Program-made: the position numbers and the translations under genes
The notes under the pieces: model-generated
What the model was told of the DNA's origin: nothing
Seen by the model: the letters and a program-made list of their open reading frames with translations, nothing else
Database searches by the model: none
Shown here: in pieces, positions 9,728-24,995 of the stretch
How the letters are laid out: every line of letters begins with the position of its first letter
How positions within the stretch are numbered: the first letter of the stretch is position 1
IMG/VR virus record: IMGVR_UViG_3300026549_000035
Span: 1-32,917 of that record
Strand: one strand, 5' to 3'
Source: a virus
Length of the DNA: 32,917 nt

Positions 9728-9856
9728 AAAAAAATGAGGGCTTGCGCCCTCGGTGCTGACTTGCTCTCAGCTGGAACAGAGCTTTGTTTTAAGTGCGCCC
9801 ACCACTCGTAGTGTCGGCTGGTTTTTAGGTGTGCTCTGTTTCTCCCTTCACCCTAC
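9728..9856 (-). ncRNA. Candidate small RNA (~125 nt): consensus promoter, no AUG anywhere in the transcript, classic intrinsic terminator
   Basis: Promoter TTGACTtttataacataatcgtgTATAAT (-10 at 9863-9868). Terminator GAGGGCgcaaGCCCUC plus U8 at 9727-9752. Internal stem CAGAGC..GCUCUG. Confidence 0.5.
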
Positions 9857-9894
9857 AAGTAGATTATACACGATTATGTTATAAAAGTCAAGCA

Positions 9895-10095
9895 TTTTTT
9901 GAAATTGTAACTATTTTGTAACCTTTGCATACCCATGCATAATTATGCATACTTTCGGGATTTAATACTTTAGTGTGTTAAAGTGCATAATTATGCACTT
10001 TATTGTTGTAGCACTTTAACGCGCTAAAATCGGCGCGGGTCGATCGTAGGCGCGCCGCCGAAACAAAGTCCAATAAAATGGACTGAATAATTATG
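9895..10095. promoter_or_regulatory. Palindrome-rich regulatory region: ATGCATAATTATGCAT (perfect 16-bp), GTTAAAGTGCATAATTATGCACTTTA, GCACTTTAACG, TTGTAAC repeats, GC hairpin GGCGCG..GCGCGCC
   Basis: Read directly from the sequence. Shares TACTTTCGGGATTTA and the motif families with 7560-7790. Confidence 0.45.
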
Positions 10096-10117
10096 CAAAA
10101 AAAAATGCGGTCACCGC

Positions 10118-10375
10118 TCAGGGGAAAATCTGAGCGGTGATGTCAACGACAATCCAGCGAGAGCCGTCCTCAGAGAGGGAGCGTTCCCAGACCAAACCGC
10201 AAGGGAGAAAAATGCGGTTTCTGCGTTCCCAGCCTCGAACTGCCATGTCAATGAACAGCTCGAACATCTGGCTCTGAGTGAGACCTTCGAAAAGGCTTCT
10301 GACGAACCACATCTGACCATCGTCAGGAACAAGGCTCAGCAGAGTGCGGTAGTGGTTAAAATCTTTCTTAGTCAT
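10118..10375 (-). CDS. Hypothetical protein (85 aa)
   Basis: RBS AAAGGAGGAA. Promoter TTGACT-17-TATAAT at ~10400-10440. C-terminal codons and the TGA stop are encoded inside the terminator stem CACCGCTCAG..CTGAGCGGTG followed by a U9 tract. Confidence 0.6.
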   Translation of the reverse strand: MTKKDFNHYRTLLSLVPDDGQMWFVRSLFEGLTQSQMFELFIDMAVRGWERRNRIFLPCGLVWERSLSEDGSRWIVVDITAQIFP

Positions 10376-10528
10376 GTTAGTTCCTCCTTTGGGGGGGTAG
10401 CCCCTCTTTCATTGTCTTTATTATAGCACACTCGGGCAAAAAAGTCAATAGTTTTTTCAAAGAAAGTATTCGTCAAAATATACAAATCGGGAATCTTTTT
10501 TGACTGTGAAGTTTGTGCATTTTGCGAA

Positions 10529-10557
10529 TTGATTTTTGCGGCGGGCTGTGGTATAAT
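10529..10557 (+). promoter_or_regulatory. Plus-strand promoter TTGATT-17-TATAAT driving a short transcript antisense to the 3' end of gene 10603..10911
   Basis: The transcript begins AATTTCCGGC and ends at hairpin GGATTAGC..GCTAATCC (10600-10620). The same architecture recurs at 9094 and 12477. Confidence 0.5.
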
Positions 10558-10602
10558 AATTTCCGGCTCTGGCGCCCGGGCACGGTGACGAAAAGAAAAG
10601 GA

Positions 10603-10911
10603 TTAGCAATACGCTAATCCCATTGTTTTCCAATTCAAAATTGAAATTTGATTGCATTTTCTTCCAATTGTCAGAGCCTCTCTTTTAGTATTAACTCTGT
10701 GACTTTTATCAACATAGTAAATACCATTTGAAAACCATACGCCGCAGTTTCCATTATACGCTTTTACTGCGTTTATTGCTTCTCTTGGGCTTGTCGTTTC
10801 AACGCCTTCCGTTGCAACCTGCCAGCCTGTTTTGTAGGTTGTGGCTTTTCCCTTTTTTAAGGTTAAGCCCTCATTTTCTTTAAGTTTCAGAATTGAACGA
10901 ATGTTAATCAT
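10603..10911 (-). CDS. Hypothetical protein (102 aa)
   Basis: Start MINIRS after AGAGAGGAG. Promoter TTGACTtttcgCTCGGGCtgtgcTATAAT at ~10935-10980. Confidence 0.6.
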   Translation of the reverse strand: MINIRSILKLKENEGLTLKKGKATTYKTGWQVATEGVETTSPREAINAVKAYNGNCGVWFSNGIYYVDKSHRVNTKREALTIGRKCNQISILNWKTMGLAYC

Positions 10912-11002
10912 TTTCTTATCTCCTCTCTTTATTGTGTCTTTATTATAGCACAGCCCGAGCGAAAAGTCAAGTGTTTTTTCAAAAAAAATAAAGGGCGTAT
11001 TT

Positions 11003-11272
11003 TTACGCCCATTGTAATTTTCCATCGACTACATAGATAACACTCTCTGCGCCATCGTATTCATCGACATAGTGGTCGGTGCAATTTTCGGGAAGCTCAA
11101 CAACTTTTAACTCAGCGTGAGTTCCATTTACATCTTCCCCTGCTTCTATTGCTGAGATTAACTCAGCATTATAGCGGAGTTCTTCACTATCATGAGAATC
11201 AATTCCAAGGCGGTCTGCCCATTCCTTAGATACGCTAAATCCACCATAGCAAGCATTGACAATTAATTTCAT
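11003..11272 (-). CDS. Hypothetical acidic protein (89 aa)
   Basis: RBS AAGAGAGGAG. Promoter TTGACTtttggatgcgtctatgcTATAAT at ~11285-11335. Stop overlaps terminator GGGCGTA..TACGCCC plus a T-tract. Confidence 0.65.
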   Translation of the reverse strand: MKLIVNACYGGFSVSKEWADRLGIDSHDSEELRYNAELISAIEAGEDVNGTHAELKVVELPENCTDHYVDEYDGAESVIYVVDGKLQWA

Positions 11273-11397
11273 TTTTTTTTATCTCCTCTCTTTATTGTAT
11301 CTTTATTATAGCATAGACGCATCCAAAAGTCAATAGTTAAATTGCACAAAGATGTGATAAGAATTCTGTGCAGATTGACGAATCCGCCCGGGCGCAA

Positions 11398-11544
11398 TTA
11401 ATAAGGCAGATACGCCTTTTTGTGTTTGCGTTCTGCCTTTCTCAGCTTACCTTTTTTTGTATCTTCTACTTTTGGAGCGAAGCCCACAAAAGTCGGTCCT
11501 CTGTGTTTTCTTTTTTCCTCGGTTTTCTTTGTCCTGTGGCTCAT
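11398..11544 (-). CDS. Small highly basic protein (48 aa; MSHRTKKTEEKRKHRGPTFVGFAPKVEDTKKGKLRKAERKHKKAYLPY), likely nucleic-acid binding
   Basis: Start after GGGGAG. Promoter TTGACAtttgaggggttttgtgcTATAAT. The 79-aa ORF-track version starts upstream of the promoter and is rejected. Confidence 0.5.
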   Translation of the reverse strand: MSHRTKKTEEKRKHRGPTFVGFAPKVEDTKKGKLRKAERKHKKAYLPY

Positions 11545-11587
11545 TTTTATCTCCCCTTTCATTGTCTTTATTATAGCACAAAACCCC

Positions 11588-11881
11588 TCAAATGTCAAGA
11601 GGTTTTTCAGAAAAAAGTTCTTTTTCTTCAATTTCATAGTCTAAGCCATCAAGATGGAAGAAAAAAGCCTTCTTTTTTAATAAAATTTTAAGCCATTCTT
11701 TACCATATAAGTTTTTTAAACTCAACCATTTAGAATAAATTGAATAATAGCTTGTATAATTTTCACTTAATCCCTTGTTATCAATAAGCCATTGGATTGC
11801 GCTTGCATGGCTGTCACAAACCGCTACAACCTCAGTAGTATCATCAAAACCGTAAGTTTCTGTAATTGTAAATACTGTCAT
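11588..11881 (-). CDS. Hypothetical protein (97 aa), co-transcribed after gene 11912..12097
   Basis: RBS AAAAGGAG. Last codons L-D-I then stop are encoded by the next promoter's -35 (cTTGACAtttga). Confidence 0.6.
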   Translation of the reverse strand: MTVFTITETYGFDDTTEVVAVCDSHASAIQWLIDNKGLSENYTSYYSIYSKWLSLKNLYGKEWLKILLKKKAFFFHLDGLDYEIEEKELFSEKPLDI

Positions 11882-11911
11882 TTTTATCGCTCCTTTTGGA
11901 TAGCTGAGGGG

Positions 11912-12097
11912 TTAACTCTCAGCCCACCAGTCAGCAGTTTTCATCTTTGCGATTTCGCCCTCTAAGCGGTCAAGGCTCAGATTGTTGTCGGGATAGCTTT
12001 CGCATTTTCTTGCGAAGTCAATAGTTTCGGGAGCTTCATGTCCGAACATTCTGATTACTTCGGTCAACATTTCTTCTCTTGTTCTTCTTTCTGTCAT
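11912..12097 (-). CDS. Hypothetical protein (61 aa)
   Basis: Promoter TTGACAagcaagggtttttgtgtTATAAT and RBS AAGGAAAGGAAG. Stop inside hairpin GGCTGAGAGTTAACCCCTCAGC. Confidence 0.6.
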   Translation of the reverse strand: MTERRTREEMLTEVIRMFGHEAPETIDFARKCESYPDNNLSLDRLEGEIAKMKTADWWAES

Positions 12098-12184
12098 TTT
12101 GATAACTTCCTTTCCTTTTTTCTGTCTTTATTATAACACAAAAACCCTTGCTTGTCAAGTGTTTTTTAAACAAAATCTGGCGTT

Positions 12185-12355
12185 TTATTTACGCCAGATT
12201 TCAATGCTCTGTGAGTAGTAGCGGTGACCATTGTCATCAACTGCTTTCAGTTCGCAGTAGGTGAAATTTCTCTTTACTCTGTTAAAGTAAGCTCTCGCTT
12301 TTTCCTCAGTGTTAAATTCCTCATAGGTTTTATAAGCAGATACTACAAATGTCAT
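12185..12355 (-). CDS. Small protein (56 aa), paralog of gene 9181..9363
   Basis: Start MTFVV after AAGGAAAGAGAGG. Promoter TTGACTttaaagacttttcatgcTATAAT. The ORF-track N-terminal extension is rejected. Confidence 0.55.
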   Translation of the reverse strand: MTFVVSAYKTYEEFNTEEKARAYFNRVKRNFTYCELKAVDDNGHRYYSQSIEIWRK

Positions 12356-12476
12356 TTTGTTTTCCTCTCTTTCCTTTTTTCTGTCTTTATTATAGCATGA
12401 AAAGTCTTTAAAGTCAATAGGCAAAGTGCACAAATCGGGAGCGCCCGAGCGCATGAAAGTTTGTGCATTTTGCCTA

Positions 12477-12505
12477 TTGATTTTGTGTGGGGATTGTGCT
12501 ATAAT
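12477..12505 (+). promoter_or_regulatory. Plus-strand promoter TTGATT-17-TATAAT, divergent from the promoter of gene 12185..12355. The inverted repeat TGCACAAA..TTTGTGCA (12427-12467) lies between the two -35 elements
   Basis: Transcript ATTTCCGGCUACGCC... ends at hairpin GGGCTGA..TCAGCCC (12542-12559), which is also the terminator of the convergent gene 12553..12903. Confidence 0.5.
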
Positions 12506-12552
12506 ATTTCCGGCTACGCCGATCGTCCTCGAAAATTAAAAGGGCTGATTGC

Positions 12553-12903
12553 TCAGCCCCAAAGTGAATTAACTGCTATTGAAAGAGACCCTTCTCGAAC
12601 ACCAGTTTCACTGTAACCATAGTATTTGCTATAATCTGTTTGATTTTTTTCTCCTCTTGCTTTAATCTCTGCTTGGATTCTACGCCAACCAATTTCAAAG
12701 CAATAATCTATAAACCATTCAGAATATCTATATTTTTCTCTTCTTGCTTTACTATAGGTCATAACAGCAATTTGATCATTAGGGTATTCTCTTTTTAACT
12801 GTTGCTTTAATGCTTGTAATTCCTCAATGTTAGTGGAGTGTTGGATAATTTTACAACCATCGTGAGAAGGTTTTTCGTTTACTTTAATTACTGCATACTC
12901 CAT
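12553..12903 (-). CDS. Hypothetical protein (116 aa)
   Basis: Promoter TTGACAagCCCGGGCtaatatgcTATAAT. RBS AAAGAGAGAGG. Confidence 0.65.
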   Translation of the reverse strand: MEYAVIKVNEKPSHDGCKIIQHSTNIEELQALKQQLKREYPNDQIAVMTYSKARREKYRYSEWFIDYCFEIGWRRIQAEIKARGEKNQTDYSKYYGYSETGVREGSLSIAVNSLWG

Positions 12904-13009
12904 GATTATTTTCCTCTCTCTTTACTGTGTTTTTATTATAGCATATTAGCCCGGGCTTGTCAAGCGTTTTTTGAAAAAAAATAAAAAAAATAAGACTGAT
13001 TGCTCAGTC

Positions 13010-13324
13010 TTATAAATCTTCATCCATAGCATCTTCATAACACTTTGAACAATAGATTTTATTATTAATTAAATCTTCAAGGCTATCACCGAGTCTTAGT
13101 TCCAAATCTAAGGCGGAAACTGTCTCGCCGCAATCAGGACAAATAAAGATTTTTTGCTCTCTCAGGAAAGTATCTATTCTTTTACCTTCGGCGCTAAGTC
13201 TTGATTTTTCTCTCTGGCGAATTTCTCCACGATATTTATAAACCTTAACATACTTTTCGTGATACTTTGTGTAATAATTATTGGCATAGTCTAGTGCGAG
13301 TTCAGCAATTTCTTTTCTTGTCAT
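13010..13324 (-). CDS. Hypothetical zinc-ribbon protein (104 aa; CPDCGETV...CSKCYED)
   Basis: Start MTRKEIAEL after AAGGAAAGAGAGG. Promoter TTGACAttttgCTCGGGCtatgcTATAAT. Terminator AAGACTGA..TCAGTCTT with a T-run at ~12975-13010. Confidence 0.6.
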   Translation of the reverse strand: MTRKEIAELALDYANNYYTKYHEKYVKVYKYRGEIRQREKSRLSAEGKRIDTFLREQKIFICPDCGETVSALDLELRLGDSLEDLINNKIYCSKCYEDAMDEDL

Positions 13325-13440
13325 TTTTATTTTCCTCTCTTTCCTTTTTTCTGTATTTATTATAGCATAGCCCGAGCAAAATGTCAAGTGTTTTTTGAAA
13401 ATTTTTTTTGTTAATTTTTTAACAATCCATTTCCATAAAT

Positions 13441-13465
13441 AAAAACCGCCGTAGCGGTTTTTATT
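13441..13465 (-). terminator. Intrinsic terminator AAAACCGC-CGTA-GCGGTTTT. A second copy lies at 13764-13786
   Basis: Stem ACCGC/GCGGT with a CGTA loop flanked by A and T runs. Shares the CCGTAGCGG core with repeats in 14150-15310. Confidence 0.6.
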
Positions 13466-13489
13466 TAATTAATCACAGTACATCCAAGT

Positions 13490-13642
13490 TTCAAGTTCTT
13501 TCAAAGATACACCAAGATACTTTGACGCTGACTTCCAGCTTTCATCCAGTTTATCAAAAAAGATATCGTTCTGTTCATCTGTTAAACTATTGATTTTGGC
13601 TTCTACCTTATTGTATGTTTTTGTTAATTTTTTGACTGTCAT
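13490..13642 (-). CDS. Small protein (about 50 aa; MTVKKLTKTYNKVEAKINSLTDEQNDIFFDKLDESWKSASKYLGVSLKRT)
   Basis: RBS AAGAGAGGAG. Promoter TTGACAttttaCTCGGGCtatgtTATAAT. A +1 frame would extend it to 13468 across an A4/T5 run, so the 3' end is uncertain. Confidence 0.4.
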
Positions 13643-13782
13643 TTTTATTATCTCCTCTCTTTATCTTGATTACATTATAACATAGCCCGAGTAAAATGTC
13701 AAGTGTTTTTTTGAAAAAAATAAAAATTTTTTTTGTTAAATTTTTAACAATTTTTCCCAAAATTAAAACCGCCGTAGCGGTT

Positions 13783-13980
13783 TTAATCCATGTGTTCTTG
13801 GCGAACTACAAAGAACTTGTCGACCTTAGTCCAGTCAACCTTGTCACCGTTCCAGAGTCTTGCGGGTTTGGTAGCGTTCAGAGTGTTTACCTCAGCCTCG
13901 GCTCTTTCCACGGTCTTGTAGGTTTCGTATGCGAGATAGCTCTCACCAGTCTTGGTAGTGTAACAGATAGCAGTTGTCAT
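13783..13980 (-). CDS. Small protein (65 aa)
   Basis: Promoter TTGACAtttcctgtaattcatgtTATAAT. RBS AAGGAAAGGAAG. Followed by the CCGTAGCGG terminator. Confidence 0.55.
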   Translation of the reverse strand: MTTAICYTTKTGESYLAYETYKTVERAEAEVNTLNATKPARLWNGDKVDWTKVDKFFVVRQEHMD

Positions 13981-14204
13981 TTTAATACTTCCTTTCCTTT
14001 TTTCTGTCTAAATTATAACATGAATTACAGGAAATGTCAATAGTCAAATTGCACAAAGATAATCGCTAAAAAAAGGTTGGTTTTGTGCATAGTGCCCAAT
14101 TAGGGCTGTGCCGACCGTTGACGTAGATTGTTAATTATTTAACAATCTATCCCCAACCTGTGTCTAACTGATAGATGTTGACACCGTAGCGGTTTACATC
14201 ATTG

Positions 14205-14365
14205 TGTGTATAACACTGTTGTTCTGTGTGTGATACTCTCTCTTTGTCTTTGTGTGTGTTGTGCTTCTCTCTCTCTCTCTTTGCTTCTCTTTGTGTGTAT
14301 GCTTCTCTCTCTCTCTCTCTTTGCTTCTCTCTTACTCTCTTTGAGTGTGTCACACACACAAACGC
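14205..14365. repeat. Low-complexity CT/GT-rich tract with ~38-bp tandem units (GCTTCTCTCTCTCTCTCTTTGCTTCTCTTTGTGTGTAT-like)
   Basis: Read directly from the sequence. Lies 3' of gene 14374..14703. The overlapping ORFs in both strands here are low-complexity artefacts. Confidence 0.7.
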
Positions 14366-14373
14366 CTTGCCCC

Positions 14374-14703
14374 TTAGTCAGCAAAAGGGTCAAGGCGCAC
14401 ACTCAAGATTTCATCATCATAGATGGTTGAAGTTCCCTGATTATCCATGAGTACAATAACAGAGTTATCTTTTTGAAAATTTTCTGTTCCAAAGAACTCC
14501 CAAATCTCTCCATGAGAATCTTCTATTTGAACAGTGTCCGAGGCTGTATCTACATCTACTACTTTAGCCTGCATGGTGTAATTAGTATCATTAGTCGTGG
14601 GTGAACTTGCGCGATAAATAAGACATACTACAAAAATGGTAACTATTACCAAATGTGTTACTACGCAGATGTTAATGATTGCATAGAATGTTTTGTTTTC
14701 CAT
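14374..14703 (-). CDS. Membrane-anchored protein (109 aa; N-terminal TM helix, beta-rich C-terminal domain)
   Basis: Promoter TTGACAagaagccaagagtatgcTATAAT, preceded by the TGCACAAA..TTTGTGCA inverted repeat. RBS AAAGAGAGAGAGG. Confidence 0.65.
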   Translation of the reverse strand: MENKTFYAIINICVVTHLVIVTIFVVCLIYRASSPTTNDTNYTMQAKVVDVDTASDTVQIEDSHGEIWEFFGTENFQKDNSVIVLMDNQGTSTIYDDEILSVRLDPFAD

Positions 14704-14995
14704 GGGTGATTGTCCTCTCTCTCTTTATTGTATCTTTATTATAGCATACTCTTGGCTTCTTGTCAATAGTCAAATTGCACAAAGATAGTATTAGTCTTTT
14801 GTGCATTTTGCCAATAGCACAAACGTTCGAACGCTCCCCCAATCTTGGCACTACGCTGATGGGAGCGTGTGCCGTAGCGGTTACTGGGGCTGTAGGTTGG
14901 TTAGCCAATGCTAACTTAATAGGGAGATTACCCTAATTAGTAAAATAGGGGTTAGGTATTGCTAACTCAATTCAAACAAAAGTTCGAACAAACGT

Positions 14996-15036
14996 CCAGC
15001 CTGTGCGTTGGCTGATAGGAGCCAGCACCGTAGCGG
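14996..15036. repeat. 41-bp direct repeat, copy 2 (CCAGCCTGTGCGTTGGCTGATAGGAGCCAGCACCGTAGCGG). Copy 3 is at 15267-15307 and a diverged copy 1 at 14154-14193
   Basis: 37 bp are identical between copies 2 and 3. All copies end in the CACCGTAGCGG motif. Confidence 0.8.
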
Positions 15037-15625
15037 CATAGCAAGATGCACAAAGAGCCGCAATAGATTTTGTATAGTTTTACCAATCGTTAGAGATTCA
15101 GCAAGAGGGTCGTGCTTCATGGGGGTTTACACAAAAAATTATCGAAGAGCTTATTACACGCAAACTACGGTCGTTGCGCCCAGTAACGACCGTAGCAAAA
15201 CTAACTATCTCGTTTTAGGCGTGGCTAATCTTCACAGAGTTAGCCTTAGCTAATTGGTCTCATACTCCAACCTGTGCGTTGGCTGATAGGAGCCAGCACC
15301 GTAGCGGTTCATTCATTGGGGGTATTTAACTTACCCCAGGGTGTTTGACAGGGGTGAGATGCGACAGTAGGCCCTAGCATTTTTTCTCAATCAGCAATAC
15401 TTTTTATATATTTTTAATGAGATAAAAATGGAAAGAGGGGGGCACTATTTCGGGAAAAAATTTTTTTTAAAGAGAAAAAATTTTTTTGTCTGACCAAAAC
15501 TATCTTGAAACTAATTTTCATTTTCAATTACGATATCAGGAAAAATATTCTTCCCTCTTCTTTTTTTACCTTTTTCAAAAAAAATATGCCGGCCGCAATT
15601 ATCGCCACCGACATTCGAATTATCA

Positions 15626-15913
15626 TTAAACATTACGCACAAATACATGCCAAACTAATCCATCATCCATTTGAACTGTTCCTATATAATCTCCAATATA
15701 ACCATATTTACATCCCGTTCCCAAAACAGTAATTTCCACGGTTATTTTTTCATTTTCTTTCCGATGTTTTCCACTGTACTTTTCTATATGATTTTCAGCC
15801 CACATTACTAAATTATTGTTTTGTTTTCCAACTGTAAAAATTCCAGTAAACCAACCTTTAATTCTTACACATCCGCCTTCTGGAAGAATATATTTGTACA
15901 TTACTTTTTTCAT
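15626..15913 (-). CDS. Hypothetical protein (95 aa) in the AT-rich block
   Basis: Start MKKVMYK after AAAGGATGA. Promoter TTGATT-17-TATAAT at ~15930-15960, back-to-back with the plus-strand promoter at 15973-16001. Confidence 0.55.
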   Translation of the reverse strand: MKKVMYKYILPEGGCVRIKGWFTGIFTVGKQNNNLVMWAENHIEKYSGKHRKENEKITVEITVLGTGCKYGYIGDYIGTVQMDDGLVWHVFVRNV

Positions 15914-15972: not shown

Positions 15973-16001
15973 TTGACAGAAGAAAAATTTTTTGTTATAA
16001 T
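15973..16001 (+). promoter_or_regulatory. Sigma-A type promoter TTGACA-17-TATAAT for the first plus-strand gene
   Basis: TTGACAgaagaaaaattttttgtTATAAT, then GGAGG and the ATG at 16031. Confidence 0.65.
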
Positions 16002-16030
16002 TCTATTAGAGACTGGAGGTAAGATAATAA

Positions 16031-17078
16031 ATGATAAAACTTGATTATTCTTTAACTTCTCCAGAAGATAGAAATAAATTAGTAAAAAAAATACTCGAAG
16101 AAAATCCTGACCCAGGAGAAAAATATCTAGAAATTTTGGCTGATTACCTTATCTTCGCCATGGAGAAAGAAGAAAAAAAGAAAAAGAAAATTCTTACTGA
16201 AAATAGGATGACTACCGTAAATAAGAGAGAAACATCTTTTGAAGGTCTTGTCGCTCAATTGGAAAATGGCGAAGATGGTATATATAATTTAATAACAAAC
16301 AATAAACAAGTAATATTTCAACCAAAAGTAACAATAACAAAAAAAGATTTAGCAGACATTCCCCCTCTTCGTGAATTGCGCGAGACTATTAGTAATTGGG
16401 AAACAAAATTAAAAACGGCTGAAGGTAAGGATCGTTTTATTATTAAAAAGGCGCTGATAGAAATGCGCAAAGACCAATACATAATAAAAAATTCTTATCG
16501 ACAACCAATTATCCCAAATAAAATAACAAGGTCTTCTAGTTATATCCATTTAGATGATAACACTAACGCATTTGATGAAGAGGGGTATCCTATTTCTGAA
16601 GGATTTTCCTTAATGAATCCAAAAGTTTGTGAAGCTATTTTATGCAACTATTCTCGATTAAAGCAAGATGCGGAAGGAAAGTTTGAAGGCGATACTTGGT
16701 ATATAATCTATGATTTTGAAAATCTTTGCGAAAAAGCCTTAGAAAAATATCCTTTATATATGCGCTTAGTCGAATATAAAATTGATGGTATGCAAAACAT
16801 TGATATTTAGGTTTAGCTTCAATTAGAGTTTGGAATTAAACATAGCGTAGAATACATCTCAAGTTTATGGCGCAATAAAATTCCTAAATTAATTGCGTCC
16901 GCAGCTGAAGATGAATATTTAGACTGGTATTATTTAAATATTGCTAAAGGAAAATATAAAAAATGTAGTCGATGCAACGAAATTAAACTTGCGCACAATA
17001 AATATTTTAGCAAAAATAAAACCAGTAAAGATGGTTTTTATAGTATATGTAAAAGTTGTCGAAATAAGAAAAAAACTT
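16031..17078 (+). CDS. Hypothetical protein. A 259-codon TAG-free body, then tandem in-frame TAG-GTT-TAG (16808, 16814), then an 88-codon C-terminal zinc-ribbon tail (CSRCNEI...CKSCRNKKK) ending at TGA
   Basis: The frame stays open through both TAGs and encodes a plausible CxxC...CxxC domain. The overlapping ORF 16941..17279 in another frame has no RBS. Readthrough depends on TAG being a sense codon. Confidence 0.55.
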
Positions 17079-17146
17079 GACATTGGGCAAAAATTCCAAA
17101 TTAAGGCTAGTTATTTATTATATTTTAATGAAAAGGAGGAATTTTT

Positions 17147-17908
17147 ATGCCTAGTGATGGCAAACAATATTATTGTGAAAAATGTAATAGAACAATGGCT
17201 GCCGAATAGTTTTATTCTTCAAACAATTTGGAGAAATATCCTAACGACGGCAAATTTCCTATGTGCAAAAAATGTATGACAATGCACGTAGACAATTGGA
17301 ATCCAGATAGTTATATGTGGATTATTCAAGAAGCAGATGTTCCATATATCCCAGAAGAGTGGAATAAATTAATGGCTTCATATGCGAAAGATCGTAATAA
17401 AGTCACTGGTATGACTATAATTGGGCGATATCTTTCTAAAATGAAATTAAAACAATTTAGAGATTATCGATGGAAAGATACCGAATTTTTACAAGAGCTT
17501 GCGAAATCTAAAAGAGAATAGATTATGAAGGAGCAAGGATATGATGCTCAATAGATTGCGCTCGCAAATGAAAGAGCTTCTTTCGAGGTCCCTTAGAATA
17601 TTGCGATTCCTGACCTTGCGGCTGAGCCTGTTAATCCGTTCCTTGCGTCTGGAACAGAAGATTATTTTGCAGATTAGTCGGGCGCAAGTGATGATGATAT
17701 TGATTTAACAGACGAAGATAAACTTTATCTTCGTTTAAAATGGGGAAAAACTTATAAGCCAGAGGAATGGGTAAAACTTGAATAGTTATATAATGATATG
17801 ATGAATTCATATGATATTCAAGGAGCAGGACATGAAGATAATCTTAAACTTTTATGTAAAACATCTCTTAAGGCAAATCAATTAATTGATATTGGGGATA
17901 AATCTTAA
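17147..17908 (+). CDS. Hypothetical zinc-ribbon protein (~253 aa) with five in-frame TAG codons (the first at 17204)
   Basis: RBS AAAGGAGG. CxxC..CxxC motifs (YYCEKCNRT...MCKKCMT). TAA stop at 17906-17908, immediately before the intron-like element. Confidence 0.55.
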
Positions 17909-17914
17909 TCTATG

Positions 17915-19010
17915 TTCCCATAAAACTCTCTTAATTGCTGGAAACTCTTAAAGCATTATAAACTACATAGGAAATCTTTTTTAAGATTAAACTAGAATGT
18001 TTGAAAATTATAATGATATATAGACAATCAGCAGCCAAATTATTTAAAAAAGGAATGATCAAAAATAATGTTTAAACAATATTATAATACACCATACGAT
18101 ATTTATGAAGATGGTAGATGTTTTAGTCATTTATCAAATAAATTTTTAACGCCTAAAATGTCTGCTAAATATCCATCTTATAATTTAACTTTTGAAGGCA
18201 AAAAACGTTAGGTAAAAGTGCATCGGATGGTAGCAGAAACTTTTATTCCAAATCCAGAAAATAAGCCAATTGTAAATCATATGGATGGCGATACACATAA
18301 TTTTCATGTAAATAACTTAGAATGGGTTACTTTTAAAGAAAATAATTAGCATGCTTATAATACTGGATTAAGAAAAAATGGTAATCAAACAATTAATAAA
18401 TATATAAGTAATTTACCTAATGAAGAATGGACTGATATAAAAAATTATCCAAATTATTTAATCTCTTCATATGGACGTATTATGAATAAAAGAACTAAAA
18501 GATTATTAAAGCTTTATATAAATCATAATGGATATTATAATGTAAATTTATGGAAAAATAATAAAGGAAAAACTTTACAAGTTCATCCTTTAATTTATTC
18601 TAATTTTACAAAAGATTATGATTTAAAAAACTATGTTATTAATCATAAAGATGGTAATAAACAAAATAATCAAATTTCTAATTTAGAAAAAATTACTTAT
18701 CAAGAAAACAATTTTCATGCTAGCTATATAATAAAGACACATAAACAAGAAAAACCTGTTTATTAGTTAAATGATTAGTATGAAATTATTACATCATTCC
18801 CTTCCATTGCATCCGCATAGCGTATAACCGGCATCTCAAATATTAGTAGAGCCATAAAAAAACAAGGTAAAGCTGGCGGTTATTATTGGAAATTTAAATA
18901 AAAGGTTCAACGACTATCCTAAATGGAGTAGGATACAAGCGTATCCGAAATGGAGAGTATTTATTTTATAGTTTGTAAATAAATAAAGATATAGTCTGAC
19001 CTTTATTGAA
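17915..19010 (+). mobile_element. Group I intron-like element carrying an HNH homing-endonuclease ORF. It has a 5' motif shared with two other elements and 3' ribozyme core R (GGTTCAACGACTATCC) and S (AAGATATAGTCTGACC)
   Basis: R and S elements at ~18903-19001. 5' element AACTCTCTTAATTGCTGGAAACTCTTAA at 17917. Homologous to the elements at 19775-20213 and 21577-22700. Exon junctions not resolved. Confidence 0.45.
18068..18766 (+). CDS. HNH homing endonuclease (~232 aa) with in-frame TAG at 18209 and 18347
   Basis: Motifs [40 protein letters not shown] and [17 protein letters not shown] are canonical HNH (HNH_3-like). RBS AAGGAA. Confidence 0.8.
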
Positions 19011-19048
19011 AAATAAAGAAAAAGTTTAGCGAACTTTAAAACAAAAAA

Positions 19049-19510
19049 ATGGTAGAAGGTTTCCAAAAGATGTCAAAAGTTTATGATTAGCTTATGAAGT
19101 CAGGCAAATTTACTGCAGCTTAGAATAAAGCTGAATCTGGTGAATATGTTGATTCTGTAGGTGAATTAGTAGCTATTTGTGAAAAAGATGGTTTTATTCC
19201 ACGTTATTATTTAGGAGAACCTAATGATAAAGTAGATTAGACTATTATTGATATGAAACGTTATACTCGTACCTTAATTACTGAAGAAACCAATCTTGGT
19301 AATCTTATTGAAGAAGCTATTAAAAATAACCAAAAAGAAGATGAAGAAGAACGCAATTCTAAGAATACTGATACTGGATTATTAGATGTTGAAGAATTAG
19401 AAGAACAATTGCGTGATGAAGACTTTGAAGAGTATAGTGAATTTTTAGATAATGAAGAGGCTAGTGATGCTGACCTTTTAAATTTCTTAACTGAAAATGG
19501 AGGTTAGTAA
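19049..19510 (+). CDS. Putative small terminase subunit (~153 aa, acidic C-terminus) with four in-frame TAG codons
   Basis: Immediately upstream of the large terminase, whose RBS is embedded in its end. The weak RBS of this gene suggests coupling or a splicing relationship with the upstream intron-like element. Confidence 0.4.
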
Positions 19511-19512
19511 TT

Positions 19513-19774
19513 ATGGCTTTACAAGATTTATTAGATATTAATACTAAACGATAGAAAATAGGTTTATCTGAAGAGCGCATTGAAGCTATAAAACCTGCGC
19601 TCAGGAAGTATATTGCGTTTTGGCGAGAATACCCAGACCTTTTTATTGATTTTTTAGTAAGAGGTCCTCGAACAGAAGTAAAAGAAGGAGAATTTCATTT
19701 CTATTTTTATTAGAGAGTTTTTCTTCGTTGTGTTATGCGACATTAGTATGTATATGCCGTATTCCCTCGTGCGT
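19513..19774 (+). CDS. Large terminase subunit, exon 1 (N-terminal ATPase segment up to the Walker A region ...MRHQYVYAVFPRA)
   Basis: RBS GGAGG. Two in-frame TAG codons. The reading frame closes at 19804. The exon end is approximate. Confidence 0.6.
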
Positions 19775-20213
19775 CAAAAAGTGGCGCCAATATTATTTTT
19801 CACTAATTGTGGAAAATTTTGGACAAAACTTCTCTAATTGTGGGAACTCTAAATTCATATGAATTATGAACAAGAGAATCCAGAGTAAATATAAAAGAGG
19901 AGTATGTTTAAATATAAAATTAGATAGTAGTAGTATTACAAAATGCTGCAAAGGGAAATTAAAAACTATAGGTGGTTTTATATTTAAATATGCTTAATTT
20001 TTATAAATCTTTAACGACTATCCTGAAAAAGTCTCCGAGGGATAATAAGTAGAGGCAATAGGAGTAGGGCGCAAGCAAATGGCGTGGGTGAGAGTCCCTT
20101 AAATCGAAAAGAGAAGATTTATTATATTTTATAATAAATGTGAGATAGTCTATTCTTATAGGAAACTATAAGCAGTTCATAAGAGAACGTAATGGAAGTT
20201 GCGATTCCATTAG
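19775..20213 (+). mobile_element. ORF-less group I intron interrupting the large terminase gene
   Basis: 5' element AACTTCTCTAATTGTGGGAACTCTAAATT (19826). R-like TTTAACGACTATCC (20012) and S-like GAGATAGTCTATTC (~20150), followed by P9-like hairpins CTTATAG..CTATAAG and TAATGGAA..TTCCATTA. Exon 2 resumes in a different frame (...DSKSFLSVMALMVRAILYPRANLFVTSGGKEQ). Boundaries approximate. Confidence 0.55.
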
Positions 20214-21574
20214 AATATTAAGACAGTAAATCATTTTTATCTGTTATGGCATTAATGGTTAGAGCAATTCTTTATCCTAGAGCTAATTTATTTGTTACCT
20301 CAGGAGGAAAAGAATAGGCTGCGGGTATCTTAAAAGATAAAGTAAATGAAATATGCACTTTAATTCCTGCACTCGATAGAGAAATTGACCGAAGAAGAGG
20401 TAAAACCCTTGAAGGTAAAGACTATTGTAAATATGTTTTTAGAAATGGGTCTACTTTAGATAATATTGCGGCGAGAGAAAGTTCTAGAGGTAAACGTCGA
20501 CATGGCGGGCTTGTAGAGGAGTGCGTTGGTGTTGATGATTAGATTTTACGAGAAGTAATTATTCCTGTTATGGCAATTCCTCGTCGTTGTATGGATGGTA
20601 GCACATAGGAAACTGAAACATTAAATAAAAGTTAGGTATTTGTTACTACTGCTGGATATAAAGGAACTTATCCATATGAGCGTTTAATTGGTTTTTTAGT
20701 GCGTATGGTTACCCAGCCAGAACGATGTGTAGTTATAGGTGGAACATGGCGATTACCAGTAGAAGTTGGATTACAAAGTAAAACTTTTATTAAAGACCAA
20801 AAAGATGAAGGAACCTTTAATGAAGCTTCTTTCGAACGTGAATATGAATCACGTTGGACTGGTGATGTAGAAGATGCTTTCTTTAATGCTGATATGTTTA
20901 ATAGAAATCGTATTTTAAAACAACCTGAGTATGAAGCTTCTGGTCGTTCTAGTAAAAATTAGTATTATATTATTTCTGTTGACGTAGGTCGTAAAGGCTG
21001 TGATACTGTATGTTGTATTTTTAAAGTATCTCCTTAGCCACAAGGACCTTCTTTAAAATCATTAGTTAATATTGAAATTATTAGTAATGAACACTTTGGT
21101 GACTAGGCTCTTGAATTAAAGAAATTATATTATAAATATAATGCAAGAAGAATTGTAATAGATGGTAATGGACTTGGAATTGGCTTAATTGATTATATGG
21201 TTAAACCTTCTATAGACCCAGAAACAAATGATGTTTTGCCTGATTTTGGAGTATATGGCGGAACTCAAGATGATGCGGCGGATGAATATAAAAAATATAG
21301 AACATCTGACTGTGAATAGGATGCTATTTATATTATAAAAGCTAATGCTCCAATTAATACAGAAGCACATGCTAATGCTTAGGTAAACTTGTCTTCTGGA
21401 AAAGTAAAAATGTTAATTGACGAACGTGATGCTAAAATAAAATTATTAGGAACTAAAGTCGGTCAAAATATGAAACCTGAAGAAAGGTCAATTTATTTAA
21501 AACCATTTACATTAACTTCCATATTAAAAGAGGAAATAGAATTCATTGTTTCCCTATATAGAAATATATAGTAA
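20214..21574 (+). CDS. Large terminase subunit, exon 2 (rest of the ATPase domain plus the C-terminal RNase H-like nuclease domain), with ~12 in-frame TAG codons
   Basis: Nuclease motifs YYIISVDVGRKGCDTVCCIFKV and RIVIDGNGLGIGLIDYMV. Ends TAG-TAA at 21569-21574, followed by terminator-like hairpin CTCTAAcugcGGGaaaCCCcTTAGAG plus a T5 run. Confidence 0.65.
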
Positions 21575-21576
21575 AA

Positions 21577-22700
21577 AAAACTCTCTAACTGCGGGAAACC
21601 CCTTAGAGTTTTTCATACCGCGGTATTATAGTGATATAATACGCAGCAGATATTATAATAGATATTAGATGGTAAAAATTGAAAAAATTGGGCAATCCGC
21701 AACCAAGATACTATTTTAAATTTTATTTATTATTGAAAGGGGAGTTCTGAATTATGTTTGTACCTTTAATAATAAATAATAAGACAACTCAATATTTAAT
21801 TTCTGATATTGGAGAAATTAAAAATATAAAAACAAATAAAATTTTAAAAGGAACTATTAGAAATGGATATTAGATGGTAAAATTAACAATAAATTCATAG
21901 AAAAAAGATTTTTTAATACATAGATTAGTAGCAACAACTTTCTTAGAAAATCCTTTAAATTTACCATAGGTAAATCATAAAGATAAAAATAAATTAAATA
22001 ACGCAGTATCCAATTTAGAGTGGGTATCTATTTAGGAAAATATGCTTCATCGAAGTAAAAATCTATTTATAGATAAGAAAATAAGAAAAAAGAAAGAGAA
22101 AATTATTCTTAATGAACATTGGCGTCAATATAAAAATAGTAATTATTGGATTAGTGATACTGGGAAATGTTATAATCAACAAACTCAATATTTATTATCA
22201 CCCATTAAATCTGGTAATTATTATAAATATTGTTTTTCTATAAATGGAAAGAAAAAATCTGCGTTAATTCATAAATTAGTTTATAGTTTATTTAAAGATG
22301 ATTATGATGAACAAAAACAAATTAATCATATAGATGGTGATAAATAGAATAATTCATTAGAAAATTTAGAATTAGTTACTAATCAATAGAATGTATTACA
22401 TAGCTATTATATTTTACATAATAATATCCATTAGATAGGGCAATTTGACACATAGAACAATTTAATTACTATTTACGATAGTATGAGTGCGGCCGCTCGC
22501 GCAATTAATGGTTCAGTAAGTGCTATTAGTTAGGTTTGTGCGGGAAAAGCTAAAACTCATAAAGGTTTTATTTGGAAAAAAATAGTATAAGGCTCAACGA
22601 CTATCCGGAAGGAGTAGGCTTTTTGCCGAAATGGGAGTCCCTAAACAGATAATGCTGTAGGTGAAGATATAGTCTGAACATTAGTTGAAAAACTAAGATA
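21577..22700 (+). mobile_element. Group I intron-like element carrying a tandem HNH endonuclease ORF. 5' motif AACTCTCTAACTGCGGGAAACCCCTTAGAG and 3' core R (GGCTCAACGACTATCC) and S (GAAGATATAGTCTGAAC)
   Basis: R and S elements at ~22595-22690. Homologous to the other two elements. Whether it splices an exon or is a degenerate intergenic intron is unresolved. Confidence 0.45.
21754..22590 (+). CDS. Tandem-HNH homing endonuclease (~278 aa) with ~9 in-frame TAG codons
   Basis: Two HNH modules (IHRLVATTFLENP...VNHKDKNKLNNAVSNLEWV and LIHKLVYSLF...INHIDGDKQNNSLENLELV). RBS AAAGGGGAG. TAA stop at 22588-22590. Confidence 0.7.
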
Positions 22701-22907
22701 ACGTTATTTTGGATGAATCTCAGAGAAGAAAATGAAGGCACCAATATTATTCTTAAATAGGCTAATAAAGGTATTAAAAAGGATAAGTTTTCAGCTTTTG
22801 AATATGGTTTATATTATATAAAAGTAGAAGAAGATAATAAAAAGAGAAAAAGAAGATTTAATGCTAAAGATTGGATGATGTTTAATTAATAGAAAAGGAG
22901 AGGTTAA

Positions 22908-23265
22908 ATGCGAGCTTCTAGAGGAGAGATCAAGATAGAGGAGATACTTCGTGATGCAGGATTACCTTTTAAAATGGAATATAGTTTTCCAGAATTAAAA
23001 AGTGAAAATGGCAGACCTCTTCGTTTTGATTTTGTTATATTTGATGATGATGGAAATATTGATTTTATTATAGAATTTTAGGGTAGACAGCATTATGAAG
23101 CAAGTCAAAAGTTTGGTGGAAAAAGGGGCCTTTATCAATAGCAACATAATGATAACCGCAAACGGAGATTTTGTGCATTACATGGGTTTACTTTAATTGA
23201 AATCCCTTATACAGAAGAAAATTTGATTAATTATGATTATATAATGCACAGAGCAGGTTATTAAA
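22908..23265 (+). CDS. Putative endonuclease-like protein (~118 aa; D..D..IEFQG signature), with two in-frame TAG codons
   Basis: RBS AAAAGGAGAGG. Motif FDFVIFDDDGNIDFIIEFQGRQHY resembles a PD-(D/E)XK-type core. Assignment tentative. Confidence 0.4.
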
Positions 23266-23289
23266 TGTTTAAGAAAGGAGGTATATGTT

Positions 23290-24984
23290 TTGGATATGGA
23301 TCATTTATCATCTAATGAAAATCTTTTTTTAAATAGTGAACAACGACAAGCACGTATTTTTAGTAAAGGATTTGATATGCTTTCAAGTAATAGATATATA
23401 GATTATCGAACAGCAGATAATAACTTTAGTAAAATTAAAGTTGGAGTTAAAAATTTAGAAGATGCTGTTTTAGAATTAGGAGAATTAAGAAAAACAATTC
23501 CACAATCTCCTTATTATAATAAAAAAGAATTAATGAAAGCTATCTTAAAAAATGATTATAGAAAACTAAGAGAATTTTCTAGATTTTTTTATAAAATAAA
23601 TGGTATTTATTCAAAACTTTGTCAATATATATCTTTTATGTATCGTTATGATTGGTATATTGTTCCAGAGATATTTGATGACAATGTAAAAGAAGAAAAA
23701 GTTTTAAAAGATTTTTCTAAATTATTAAATTATTTAGATAATAGTTATATTAAAAAGATTTGCGGCGAAATGGCTTTAAAGGTTCTTATAGATGGGTGCT
23801 ATTATGGTTATTTAGTAGAATCAAATGATTCAATTATGATTCAAGAACTCCCCGCAGATTTTTGTAGAACTAGATATTCTGTAAAAGGTATGCCGGCAAT
23901 TGAATTTAATATGGCTTTTTTTGATACTTTTAGAGATCTTAATTATCGAATGAGAGTTTTAAATTTATTTCCAAGTGAATTTAAAAAGGGATATATCTTA
24001 TTTAAACAGGGAAAATTACAACCTGATTATTAGGATTATCCTAGTTAGTTAGGCTTCCAAGAACGTTCTGGAGGTTGGTATTTACTTACTCCTGGTTCTG
24101 CGTTTAAGTTTAATTTAAATAATAATGATATTCCACCCTTTATAAATATTATTCCTTATTTAATTGATTTAGACTCTGCCCAAGACTTAGATAGACGTAA
24201 ATAGATGCAATAGTTATTAAAAATTATTATTCAAAAATTACCACTTGATAAAAATGGAGAATTAATTTTTGATGTAGATGAAGCAAGAGATATTCATAAT
24301 AATGCTGTTGCAATGCTGTAGCGAGCTATTGGAGTAGATGTTTTAACTACTTTTGCAGATGTTGAAAGTATTGATATGTCAGATAAAAATACTACAACTA
24401 CAAGAGATGACTTAGCAAAAGTTGAAAGAACAGTTTATAATGCCGCTGGTATTTCAAAAAATGTTTTTAATACAGAAGGAAATCTTGCTTTAGAGAAATC
24501 TATTTTAGAAGATGAGTCTACAGTTAGAAATTTATTGTTATAGTTTATAGTGTTTTTTGACAGAATAGTTTAGACTAAAAATTCTAATAAAAAGAAATAC
24601 GCTTTTAGATTTTATATGTTAGAAACAACTCAATATAATTATCAGAATTTATCTAAAATGTATAAAGAACAAGCTTAGATGGGACATTCAAAAATTCTCC
24701 CTCAAATTGCTTTAGGTCATTCTTAGAGCTTTATTTTAAATACTGCTTATTTTGAAAATAACGTTTTACACTTAACTGAATTAATGTTACCTAACTTATT
24801 AAGTTCAACAATGAATTTAGCAGATTTATTGGGTAAAAATGAACAAAATAATAATAACAATTAGCAAAAGAAAACAGGAGGACAAAATAAATAGGCTTCT
24901 GATAAACAAGAAGCGGGTCGTCCAGAAAAAGCTGATGATGAAAAAAGCGAAAAAACAATTCAAAATAAAGAGTCTATGAATTAA
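23290..24984 (+). CDS. Putative portal protein (~564 aa) with many in-frame TAG codons
   Basis: Position between terminase and scaffold. Size. RBS AAAGGAGG, with a probable TTG or ATG start at 23290-23296. TAA stop at 24982-24984. Confidence 0.55.
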
Positions 24985-24995
24985 GGAGGGTTATA

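What the first reader, a model, noticed from the sequence alone, without database searches (positions are those of the whole stretch)
16031..17078. Boundary gene with sigma-A promoter and tandem TAG-GTT-TAG before a zinc-ribbon tail: candidate suppressor-dependent switch
The first plus-strand gene has a perfect host-type promoter and RBS and 259 TAG-free codons. It then has two TAG codons three nucleotides apart, followed by 88 further in-frame codons. These encode a CxxC...CxxC domain and end at TGA. Without TAG suppression the gene yields a 259-aa protein. With suppression it yields a ~347-aa protein carrying an extra zinc-ribbon domain. Its position at the junction between the standard-code early module and the recoded late module makes it a plausible timing device or sensor of recoding status.
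Basis: inference. Interest (0 to 1): 0.7.

Follow-up and report, generated by a model that had tools for sequence, protein, structure and literature searches.

The report
Recoded regulator gene, not a switch
The two in-frame TAG codons are ordinary glutamine codons in a gut phage that reads TAG as an amino acid, so the gene encodes one conserved 349-residue DNA-binding protein, not a short and a long form.

Summary
A perfect TTGACA-17-TGnTATAAT promoter and a GGAGG RBS precede an ATG at 16031. TAG codons sit at 16808-16810 and 16814-16816, followed by 87 more codons with CxxC...CxxC and a TGA stop at 17078-17080.

The "switch" reading does not hold. The whole plus-strand arm (16.0-32.9 kb) reads TAG as Gln: 84 in-frame TAGs, 38% of Gln codons. 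The focal ORF matches one phage family (PHROG 5767, labelled "sigma factor") end to end, across both TAGs. Standard-code relatives have a full-length protein with no stop there.

In 41 distinct recoded relatives the gene carries 0-7 TAGs, with the first at codon 6 to 260. TAG use equals that of downstream genes. TAG260 replaces a near-invariant Gln; TAG262 occurs only in this strain group. Both lie inside a helix of a well-folded HTH domain. The zinc-ribbon end is the most conserved part and is under purifying selection.

This is the only gene in the window with both an early-class host promoter (27 sites against 0.02 expected, none in the late arm) and TAG codons, and it heads the late operon. 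Gating by a suppressor tRNA is plausible but applies to the whole arm. The sigma-factor identity is unproven.

The parts
15973..16001 (+). Host sigma-A-type promoter: TTGACA, 17-nt spacer, TG-extended TATAAT
   Evidence: 12/12 match. It is one of 27 exact TTGACW-N17-TATAAT sites against 0.02 expected, and none lies in 16002-32917. The same promoter type sits about 25-30 nt upstream of the ATG in 47 of 55 distinct relatives.
16015..16019 (+). Ribosome-binding site GGAGG, 11 nt before the ATG
   Evidence: Read directly from the sequence. GGAGG is conserved in relatives.
16031..17080 (+). Single ORF of 349 codons plus a TGA stop, read with TAG = Gln. It encodes a PHROG 5767 protein (labelled 'sigma factor').
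   Evidence: PHROG 5767 at E = 1.5e-59, one stretch covering aa 31-347. There are at least 6574 database homologues, most about 350 aa. P0001 is 99% identical and was called as 349 aa.
16808..16810 (+). TAG codon 260, read as Gln
   Evidence: The alignment column holds 46 Gln and 9 TAG among 57 unique sequences. It is retained in six strains of about 97% nt identity.
16814..16816 (+). TAG codon 262, read as Gln, at a variable position
   Evidence: TAG occurs here only in the window and its near-identical strains. Other sequences have I/L/A/D/N.
16751..16939 (+). Helix-turn-helix-like three-helix unit (residues about 241-303). The TAG codons lie in its second helix (256-267).
16955..17065 (+). 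C-terminal zinc ribbon (residues about 309-345; C312, C315, C340, C343)
   Evidence: All four Cys are invariant in 73 sequences. This is the most conserved segment, with majority-residue frequency 0.61. Weak PHROG matches to zinc-ribbon parts of HNH and Lar-like proteins.
17147..17908 (+). Next gene (YonG-like, exon 1), likely co-transcribed with the focal gene
   Evidence: PHROG 3314 and Pfam YonG_N in near-identical strains. The gap to the focal gene is 66 nt here and -8 to about 70 nt in most relatives, often an overlapping TAATG; two relatives have 140- and 171-nt gaps. No terminator-like site lies between the two genes.

Best explanation
The window comes from a large gut phage related to the Enterococcus EF1, Phass-1 and SPbeta-like group. 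Its plus-strand structural arm is written in genetic code 15 (TAG = Gln).

The focal feature is the first gene of that arm. It encodes one continuous, conserved 349-aa protein with three parts: an N-terminal helical region, a sigma-4/LuxR-like helix-turn-helix, and a C-terminal CxxC...CxxC zinc ribbon. It is most likely a DNA-binding transcription regulator. Databases label it 'sigma factor', which is unproven.

The two TAGs are ordinary Gln codons that arose by the same CAG-to-TAG drift that recoded the rest of the arm. They fall inside the HTH, so termination there would give a fragment lacking DNA binding, not a designed short isoform.

Shown:
- TAG is a sense codon and means Gln.
- The protein is continuous and under selection downstream of the TAGs.
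- TAG positions vary among relatives.
- The promoter belongs to the early class.

Inferred:
- The gene and the genes behind it are transcribed by host RNA polymerase from the consensus sigma-A promoter at 15973.
- Like every gene of the arm, it yields full-length protein only once a phage suppressor tRNA(CUA)-Gln, encoded elsewhere in the genome, is available.
- Output then scales roughly with the square of suppression efficiency.
For: Recoding of the whole arm:
- Reading TAG as sense raises coverage by ORFs of at least 100 aa from 0.23 to 0.87.
- 15 of the 17 downstream genes carry in-frame TAGs, 1-11 each.
- Stops are only TAA or TGA.

TAG = Gln:
- 120 of 250 TAG positions align to Gln in unrecoded relatives.
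- Within the family, TAG columns are 18.6% Gln against a 3.2% background.

One protein:
- A single PHROG match runs across the TAGs.
- Standard-code homologues cover 99% of the length.
- 80 IMG/VR loci are all full length.

No special site:
- Relatives carry 0-7 TAGs, with the first at codon 6-260.
- All 11 unrecoded relatives have 0 TAG. 38 of 41 recoded ones have at least one.
- TAG share is 0.23 in this gene against 0.26 downstream, p = 0.21.

Selection downstream of the TAGs: 6-8 synonymous and 0 non-synonymous differences against six strains.

Codon signature: like the late genes, the focal gene has CAG 0, CAA 8, TAG 2.

Promoter class and operon layout.

Suppressor location: tRNAs-Sup(CTA) sit on the opposite, largely standard-code arm in the complete relative Phass-1 (PMC10607447).
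Against: - No suppressor tRNA is present in the window or within 10 kb of the gene in 38 relatives. The decoding agent for this phage is therefore inferred, not seen.
- Phass-1, the only complete annotated relative used for the tRNA location, lacks a homologue of this protein.
- The regulator or sigma function rests on weak evidence. There is no Pfam, NCBIfam or PDB sequence hit, Foldseek found nothing, and hhalign gave E = 0.15.
- No expression data exist. A truncated 259-aa product could in principle accumulate and act.
Confidence: 0.85

Rival explanations
1. One reading: the tandem TAGs are a programmed, suppressor-dependent switch. A functional 259-aa protein is made early. A 349-aa form with an added zinc ribbon appears once suppression starts, acting as a timer or sensor of recoding status.
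For: - This is the only gene in the window that combines an early-class sigma-A promoter with TAG codons.
- In this lineage the first TAG comes late (codon 260), so a sizeable N-terminal fragment would be made.
- Both TAGs are retained in six strains of about 97% nt identity.
- The closeness of the two TAGs is mildly unlikely by chance, 2 of 45 pairs.
Against: - TAG position and number are not conserved. In 37 of 38 TAG-bearing relatives the first TAG is earlier, at codon 6-244, and most would give a useless peptide.
- The TAGs interrupt a helix inside a compact domain rather than a linker.
- Unrecoded relatives make only the long form.
- TAG density equals that of ordinary late genes.
- The 'extra' part is the most conserved part of the family.
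Confidence: 0.05
2. Coupling gate at arm level. The protein is the activator or sigma factor for late transcription. Placing TAGs in it makes late transcription itself depend on the code switch, so host sigma-A transcription AND suppressor tRNA are both needed. This is selected for, beyond neutral recoding.
For: - The gene has an early-class promoter and heads the late arm, in the position of a regulator.
- 38 of 41 recoded relatives keep at least one TAG in it.
- A sigma-4-like HTH is plausible.
- The general model of recoding as a late-gene regulator has been published (bioRxiv 10.1101/2021.08.26.457843).
Against: - The number of relatives with at least one TAG is what neutral use predicts. 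With a TAG share of about 0.26 over about 12 Gln codons, P(no TAG) is about 3% (my own estimate from the figures). The three TAG-free cases are the least recoded genomes.
- There is no enrichment or depletion relative to neighbouring genes (p = 0.21).
- The same promoter and gene layout exist in unrecoded relatives, so the architecture predates recoding.
- No distinct late-promoter motif was found.
- The regulator function is unproven.
Confidence: 0.25
3. The gene is a pseudogene inactivated by two nonsense mutations, or the TAGs are assembly errors.
For: Under the standard code the ORF ends at codon 259.
Against: - The same two TAGs occur in six independent assemblies.
- Downstream codons show 6-8 synonymous and 0 non-synonymous changes.
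- The whole arm carries 84 in-frame TAGs that align to Gln.
Confidence: 0.01

Closest known systems
TAG-to-Gln (genetic code 15) recoded gut phages: crAss-like, Lak, Agate and similar clades, and the Phass-1 group (bioRxiv 10.1101/2021.08.26.457843; PMC9523058; PMC10607447)
   Same: - Early or standard-code genes are free of TAG, while structural genes are full of in-frame TAGs that align to Gln.
- TAG is not used as a stop in the recoded arm.
- Recoded and unrecoded members occur in one clade.
- In Phass-1, suppressor tRNAs are encoded on the other arm.
   Different: - Here the first recoded gene is a putative regulator under an early-class host promoter.
- No suppressor tRNA lies in the 33-kb window.
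- Phass-1 itself lacks this protein.
'Sigma factor' proteins of large SPbeta-like Firmicute phages: Enterococcus EF1/VRE9, Brevibacillus Sundance gp13, phiCD211 PHICD211_20175, Geobacillus E3 GP4 (PHROG 5767)
   Same: - Homologous over the full length, at 27-41% identity and 98-99% coverage for EF1 and Sundance.
- Same C-terminal HTH plus zinc ribbon.
- Same position upstream of the YonG-like, terminase and portal genes.
   Different: - Those genes contain no TAG, because those phages use the standard code.
- Some are longer (480-566 aa).
- None has been characterised experimentally as far as the searched literature shows.
Phage sigma cascades: SPO1 gp28 followed by gp33/34, and T4 gp55 (from general knowledge)
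   Same: A phage regulator gene transcribed from a host sigma-A promoter and placed to turn on later genes.
   Different: - There is no detectable sigma-2 domain and no significant sigma-70 family match.
- The gene heads the structural operon itself rather than a separate early unit.
Programmed stop-codon readthrough that makes two isoforms, e.g. the Qbeta A1 protein (from general knowledge)
   Same: An in-frame stop followed by a conserved extension.
   Different: The site is not conserved, it is not at a domain boundary, and here the 'stop' is reassigned genome-wide rather than leaky at one site.

Membership tests
Gene of a code-15 (TAG = Gln) recoded phage module | In-frame TAGs inside an otherwise conserved ORF, with homology continuing downstream | tested here: met
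   A single PHROG 5767 match runs across the TAGs. 80 loci are full length. Downstream differences are 6-8 synonymous and 0 non-synonymous.
Gene of a code-15 (TAG = Gln) recoded phage module | TAG positions align with Gln in homologues | tested here: met
   Codon 260 column: 46 Gln and 9 TAG. 120 of 250 TAG positions across ten late genes align to Gln.
Gene of a code-15 (TAG = Gln) recoded phage module | Module-wide pattern: many genes need TAG as sense, and TAG is not used as a stop | tested here: met
   ORF coverage rises from 0.23 to 0.87. There are 84 in-frame TAGs, and all stops are TAA or TGA.
Gene of a code-15 (TAG = Gln) recoded phage module | Phage-encoded suppressor tRNA(CUA) | tested here: not met
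   None in the window or within 10 kb in 38 relatives. The window is only part of the genome. The relative Phass-1 has three elsewhere in its genome. Some published recoded phages lack one (PMC10607447).
Sigma-70 family sigma factor | Sigma-2 domain (core binding and -10 recognition; Pfam Sigma70_r2) | tested here: not met
   No Pfam or NCBIfam hit in 73 members at E <= 1. hhalign against FliA, RpoH, RpoE and FecI aligns nothing in the N-terminal half.
Sigma-70 family sigma factor | Sigma-4 helix-turn-helix (-35 recognition) | tested here: inconclusive
- hhalign: correct register but E = 0.15.
- The phiCD211 homologue hits the YlxM HTH at E = 0.0013, below the Pfam cut-off.
- Foldseek: nothing.
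Sigma-70 family sigma factor | Binds RNA polymerase core and directs promoter-specific initiation | not testable with these tools
   Needs biochemistry.
PHROG 5767 ('sigma factor' by label) | Significant full-length match to the family profile | tested here: met
   E = 1.5e-59; aa 31-347 match profile positions 77-393 of 393.
Programmed readthrough or two-isoform stop-codon switch | The recoding site is conserved in position among homologues | tested here: not met
   The first TAG lies at codon 6-260. TAG262 is unique to this strain group. Unrecoded relatives have none.
Programmed readthrough or two-isoform stop-codon switch | The stop lies at a domain boundary, so the short form is a folded unit | tested here: not met
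   The TAGs lie within helix 256-267 of a compact domain with pLDDT above 95.
Programmed readthrough or two-isoform stop-codon switch | Both isoforms are produced in vivo | not testable with these tools
   Needs a Western blot, proteomics or Ribo-seq.
Zinc ribbon (CxxC...CxxC) | Four conserved Cys in two CxxC knuckles on beta hairpins | tested here: met
   C312, C315, C340 and C343 are invariant. The model places strands at 309-311 and 318-320.

The most novel reading that the evidence does not exclude
The regulator is transcribed from the start of infection by host sigma-A RNA polymerase. Until the phage suppressor tRNA accumulates, it is translated only to codon 259. In this lineage the resulting N-terminal fragment lacks the HTH and zinc ribbon. 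It could occupy the protein's partner (for example RNA polymerase) as an inactive decoy. The full-length form would then switch on late functions. That would be a translational-code-gated AND gate sitting on top of the transcription programme.
Probability: 0.07. Interest if true: 0.6.

Novelty: new member of a known kind. Interest (0 to 1): 0.25.

Why it matters
The finding mainly shows how code-15 phage genes mislead a standard-code reading: an apparent "stop plus extension" is one protein.

Three points have modest value.
- It gives a concrete, abundant test case for the published idea that stop-codon recoding gates late functions. The family has at least 6574 database homologues and 1250 clusters at 50% identity. 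The case is a putative regulator with an early-class host promoter and TAG codons at the head of the late operon.
- The clade holds recoded and unrecoded members at 60-80% protein identity. This allows a natural comparison of how recoding spreads gene by gene.
- The widely propagated label "sigma factor" for this family has no solid sequence or structural support and deserves an experimental test.

Tried and rejected
- Alternative codes: TGA or TAA as sense do not restore long ORFs.
- Suppressor tRNA: searched for in the window with ARAGORN and Rfam and around the gene in 38 relatives. None was found.
- Sigma-factor identity:
  - Pfam, NCBIfam and PDB by sequence and by profile gave no support.
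  - Foldseek against the PDB, with the full model and with the C-terminal domain, also gave none.
  - hhalign against four E. coli sigma factors gave E = 0.15.
- Homologue in the complete recoded relative Phass-1: absent.
- Late-promoter motif in 138 late-arm intergenic stretches: only RBSs, a hairpin and intron core elements were enriched.
- Terminators in the late arm: at chance level.
- Rfam for group I introns, with the gathering threshold and with E <= 1: no hit.
The single-protein scan hit only phage-sized MAG contigs with mixed, mostly Clostridia labels, so host evidence is weak.
- Literature search for experimental work on this protein family: nothing found.
- Pseudogene or assembly-error explanations: rejected.

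Full report
**1. Observation.**

- TTGACA lies at 15973-15978, followed by a 17-nt spacer ending in TG, and TATAAT at 15996-16001.
- GGAGG lies at 16015-16019 and the ATG at 16031.
- 259 TAG-free codons follow. TAG is at 16808-16810, GTT comes next, and TAG is at 16814-16816.
- 87 further sense codons then encode C312-x2-C315 and C340-x2-C343, and TGA is at 17078-17080.
- The consensus scan scores the promoter 12/12. It is the only perfect site between 15300 and 19600.
- The read-through product is 349 aa.

**2. The whole plus-strand arm is recoded.**

- Under the standard code the window is a mosaic of short ORFs.
- Reading TAG as sense restores a continuous series of plus-strand genes from 16031 to the end of the window. 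TGA or TAA as sense do not.
- Of the 17 genes downstream of the focal one, 15 carry 1-11 in-frame TAGs and two carry none. The small minus-strand genes at 368-15913 carry essentially none.
- Gln codon counts, as CAA/CAG/TAG:
  - early arm: 34/28/0
  - focal gene: 8/0/2
  - late arm: 123/13/84
- The focal gene therefore shares the late-arm signature, in which CAG is replaced by TAG.
- All late-arm stops are TAA or TGA.
- TAG means Gln. In ten late genes, 120 of 250 TAG positions align to Gln in six unrecoded relatives; the next most frequent residue is Glu at 29.

**3. The focal ORF is one conserved protein.**

- With TAG read as Gln, the protein matches PHROG 5767 at E = 1.5e-59. The match is a single stretch, aa 31-347 onto profile positions 77-393 of 393, running across both TAGs and through the zinc ribbon.
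- Standard-code phages encode full-length homologues with no stop at that place:
  - Enterococcus EF1/VRE9: 41% identity, 99% coverage
  - Brevibacillus Sundance: 27% identity, 98% coverage
  - human-gut contig MT836163: 57% identity
- MT836163 reads NIEIQQLLQ where the window reads NIDI-TAG-V-TAG-LQ.
- The public protein collection holds at least 6574 homologues. One is a 349-aa sequence 99% identical to the window's, already called with TAG as sense.
- A search of cluster representatives finds 1250 clusters at 50% identity, most about 340-370 aa.
- In a 73-sequence alignment the invariant residues are Y39, S277, P285 and the four cysteines.
- The 87 residues after the TAGs are the most conserved part, with majority-residue frequency 0.55 against 0.45 upstream.
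- Against six strains of about 97% nucleotide identity, the region after the TAGs shows 6-8 synonymous and 0 non-synonymous codon differences. It is therefore translated in this frame.

**4. The TAG pair is not a conserved device.**

- An IMG/VR scan returned 80 related loci (58-81% identity, all full length).
- In them the gene holds 0-7 in-frame TAGs at scattered positions, from codon 6 to codon 350.
- On the alignment, the window's codon 260 column has 46 Gln and 9 TAG. Codon 262 is TAG only in the window, while other sequences have I/L/A/D/N.
- All 11 distinct relatives with unrecoded downstream genes have zero TAGs in this gene. 38 of 41 distinct recoded relatives have at least one.
- The first TAG falls at codon 6-260 (median about 76). 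The window's is the latest of all.
- The TAG share of Gln codons in this gene (0.23) does not differ from that in downstream genes (0.26; Wilcoxon p = 0.21).
- The three recoded relatives without a TAG are the least recoded genomes, as neutral use predicts.
- The closeness of the two TAGs is weakly unusual: 2 of 45 possible pairs among the 10 Gln codons. This follows from a local Q-x-Q-x-Q run.
- Both TAGs persist in six near-identical strains. That is expected for sense codons.

**5. Structure.**

- The AlphaFold2 model built from the 73-sequence alignment has mean pLDDT 87.
- The C-terminal half modelled alone (residues 195-349) reaches pLDDT 95.
- Residues 241-303 form three helices, and the TAG codons lie within the second (256-267). 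A zinc ribbon follows (strands at 309-311 and 318-320, then the second CxxC).
- Termination at codon 260 would therefore cut a compact domain in the middle of a helix. It would remove the putative recognition helix (the S277, W280, I284, P285 motif) and the zinc ribbon.

**6. What the protein is.**

- The name "sigma factor" comes from PHROG and GenBank labels.
- The following give no support:
  - Pfam, NCBIfam and PDB sequence or profile searches
  - Foldseek, which finds nothing significant
- Three weak pointers agree that the region around residues 227-300 is a sigma-4/LuxR-type HTH:
  - hhalign against E. coli FliA, RpoH, RpoE and FecI aligns residues 227-263 to region 4 in the canonical register, but at E = 0.15
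  - the phiCD211 homologue hits a YlxM-type HTH at E = 0.0013, below the Pfam cut-off
- There is no sign of a sigma-2 domain.
- I therefore call it a putative DNA-binding regulator with an HTH and a zinc ribbon. Membership of the sigma-70 family is unproven.

**7. Transcriptional context.**

- TTGACW-N17-TATAAT occurs 27 times in the window against 0.02 expected.
- 25 of these sites are on the minus strand of the early arm, roughly one per small gene. One is at 9094 on the plus strand, and one is the focal promoter.
- None lies in 16002-32917. Promoter-like sites in the late arm are at chance level, 86 against 89.6 expected.
- The same promoter type sits about 25-30 nt before the ATG in 47 of 55 distinct relatives, recoded and unrecoded alike.
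- The next gene (YonG-like) follows after 66 nt here and after -8 to about 70 nt in most relatives, often as an overlapping TAATG. Two relatives have 140- and 171-nt gaps. No terminator-like site lies between the two genes.
- The focal gene therefore heads the operon that contains the terminase and portal genes.
- It is the only gene in the window that is early by promoter and recoded by codons.
- Because the same layout exists in unrecoded relatives, the layout predates recoding.

**8. How TAG is decoded.**

- The window has one tRNA, Lys(UUU) at 4001-4075 on the minus strand, and no suppressor.
- No tRNA lies within 10 kb of the gene in 37 of 38 relatives, and the one found is not a suppressor.
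- The complete, annotated, TAG-recoded relative Phass-1 (portal 42% identical) carries three tRNA-Sup-CTA genes. They sit on the opposite replication/early arm, in or near its tRNA arrays (PMC10607447).
- Phass-1 lacks a homologue of the focal protein.
- By analogy, the suppressor of this phage is probably encoded outside the window on the standard-code arm. This is inference.

**9. Mechanism.**

- Most likely, host sigma-A RNA polymerase transcribes the focal gene and the genes behind it.
- Full-length translation of all of them needs suppressor tRNA-Gln(CUA).
- For the focal gene, yield scales about with the square of suppression efficiency.
- This is the published general model for recoded phages (bioRxiv 10.1101/2021.08.26.457843) applied to one more gene.
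- A selected coupling gate, in which the regulator's TAGs tie late transcription to the code switch, cannot be excluded. The TAG statistics give it no support.
- A designed pair of short and long isoforms is unlikely.

**10. Comparison and novelty.**

- The feature belongs to the known class of code-15 recoded phage genes.
- Its protein belongs to an abundant, uncharacterised family of SPbeta-like and EF1-like phages.
- Genome-scan hits are phage-sized contigs binned mostly into Clostridia MAGs, which is weak host evidence.
- Nothing here is categorically new. The value lies in correcting the annotation and in offering a testable case.

Noticed in passing
window 97-14766, minus strand: The early arm carries 25 exact TTGACW-N17-TATAAT promoters, most with a TG extension, about one per small gene (27 in the window against 0.02 expected). 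Several spacers share a GCCCGGGC or CTCGGGC core, which may be an operator.
   Followed up: partly
window 17900-19051: A 1,152-nt insert splits the YonG-like gene (exons 17147-17899 and 19052-19510). It contains an HNH/NUMOD endonuclease ORF (18068-18901). It is precisely absent from strains of about 97% nt identity, where the gene is an uninterrupted 403 aa. Sequences resembling the group I intron P, Q, R and S elements flank the ORF, but Rfam finds no intron.
   Followed up: partly
window 19513-22907: The terminase large subunit appears split into three exons. An ORF-less insert of about 440 nt (19807-20245) carries an HNH ORF in relative L084. A second insert holds an HNH ORF (21754-22590), followed by R- and S-like elements at 22591-22680. 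A further homing-endonuclease-like ORF lies at 22908-23264.
   Followed up: partly
window 26591-27616 and 27635-28741: Two adjacent late genes have no TAG among 31 Gln codons, while neighbouring genes use TAG for 30-60% of Gln. The second matches PHROG 4088 and is probably a major head protein. A GC-rich hairpin with a T-run follows at about 28760-28800. This may mean highly expressed genes avoid TAG.
   Followed up: no
window 4001-4075, minus strand: A tRNA-Lys(UUU) is the only tRNA in the window. It sits in the early arm downstream of a consensus promoter (4545-4573). It may be the edge of a tRNA array like that of Phass-1.
   Followed up: no
loci L004-L083 compared with L011, L026-L032, L035-L042, L045-L052: Within this one clade (58-81% identity to the focal protein) some phages are heavily TAG-recoded and others not at all, so code change is evolutionarily recent and labile. 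L057 and L058 are weakly recoded and still have no TAG in this gene.
   Followed up: partly
window 16160-16330 (protein residues about 44-100): This segment is highly conserved (T56, R59, T62, R66 and S69 at 90% or more) but is modelled with low confidence (pLDDT about 58-65). It could be a partner-binding region that folds on binding.
   Followed up: no
window 17147-17300: The next protein (YonG-like) starts with the same kind of zinc ribbon (C-x2-C ... DG-x4-CK-x-C) that ends the focal protein.
   Followed up: no
window 7690-8295, minus strand: One early-arm ORF (7849-8295) ends at a TAG and would extend to 7690 if TAG were read through. Either it is the only early gene that uses TAG as a stop, or it is a recoded gene in the early arm.
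   Followed up: no
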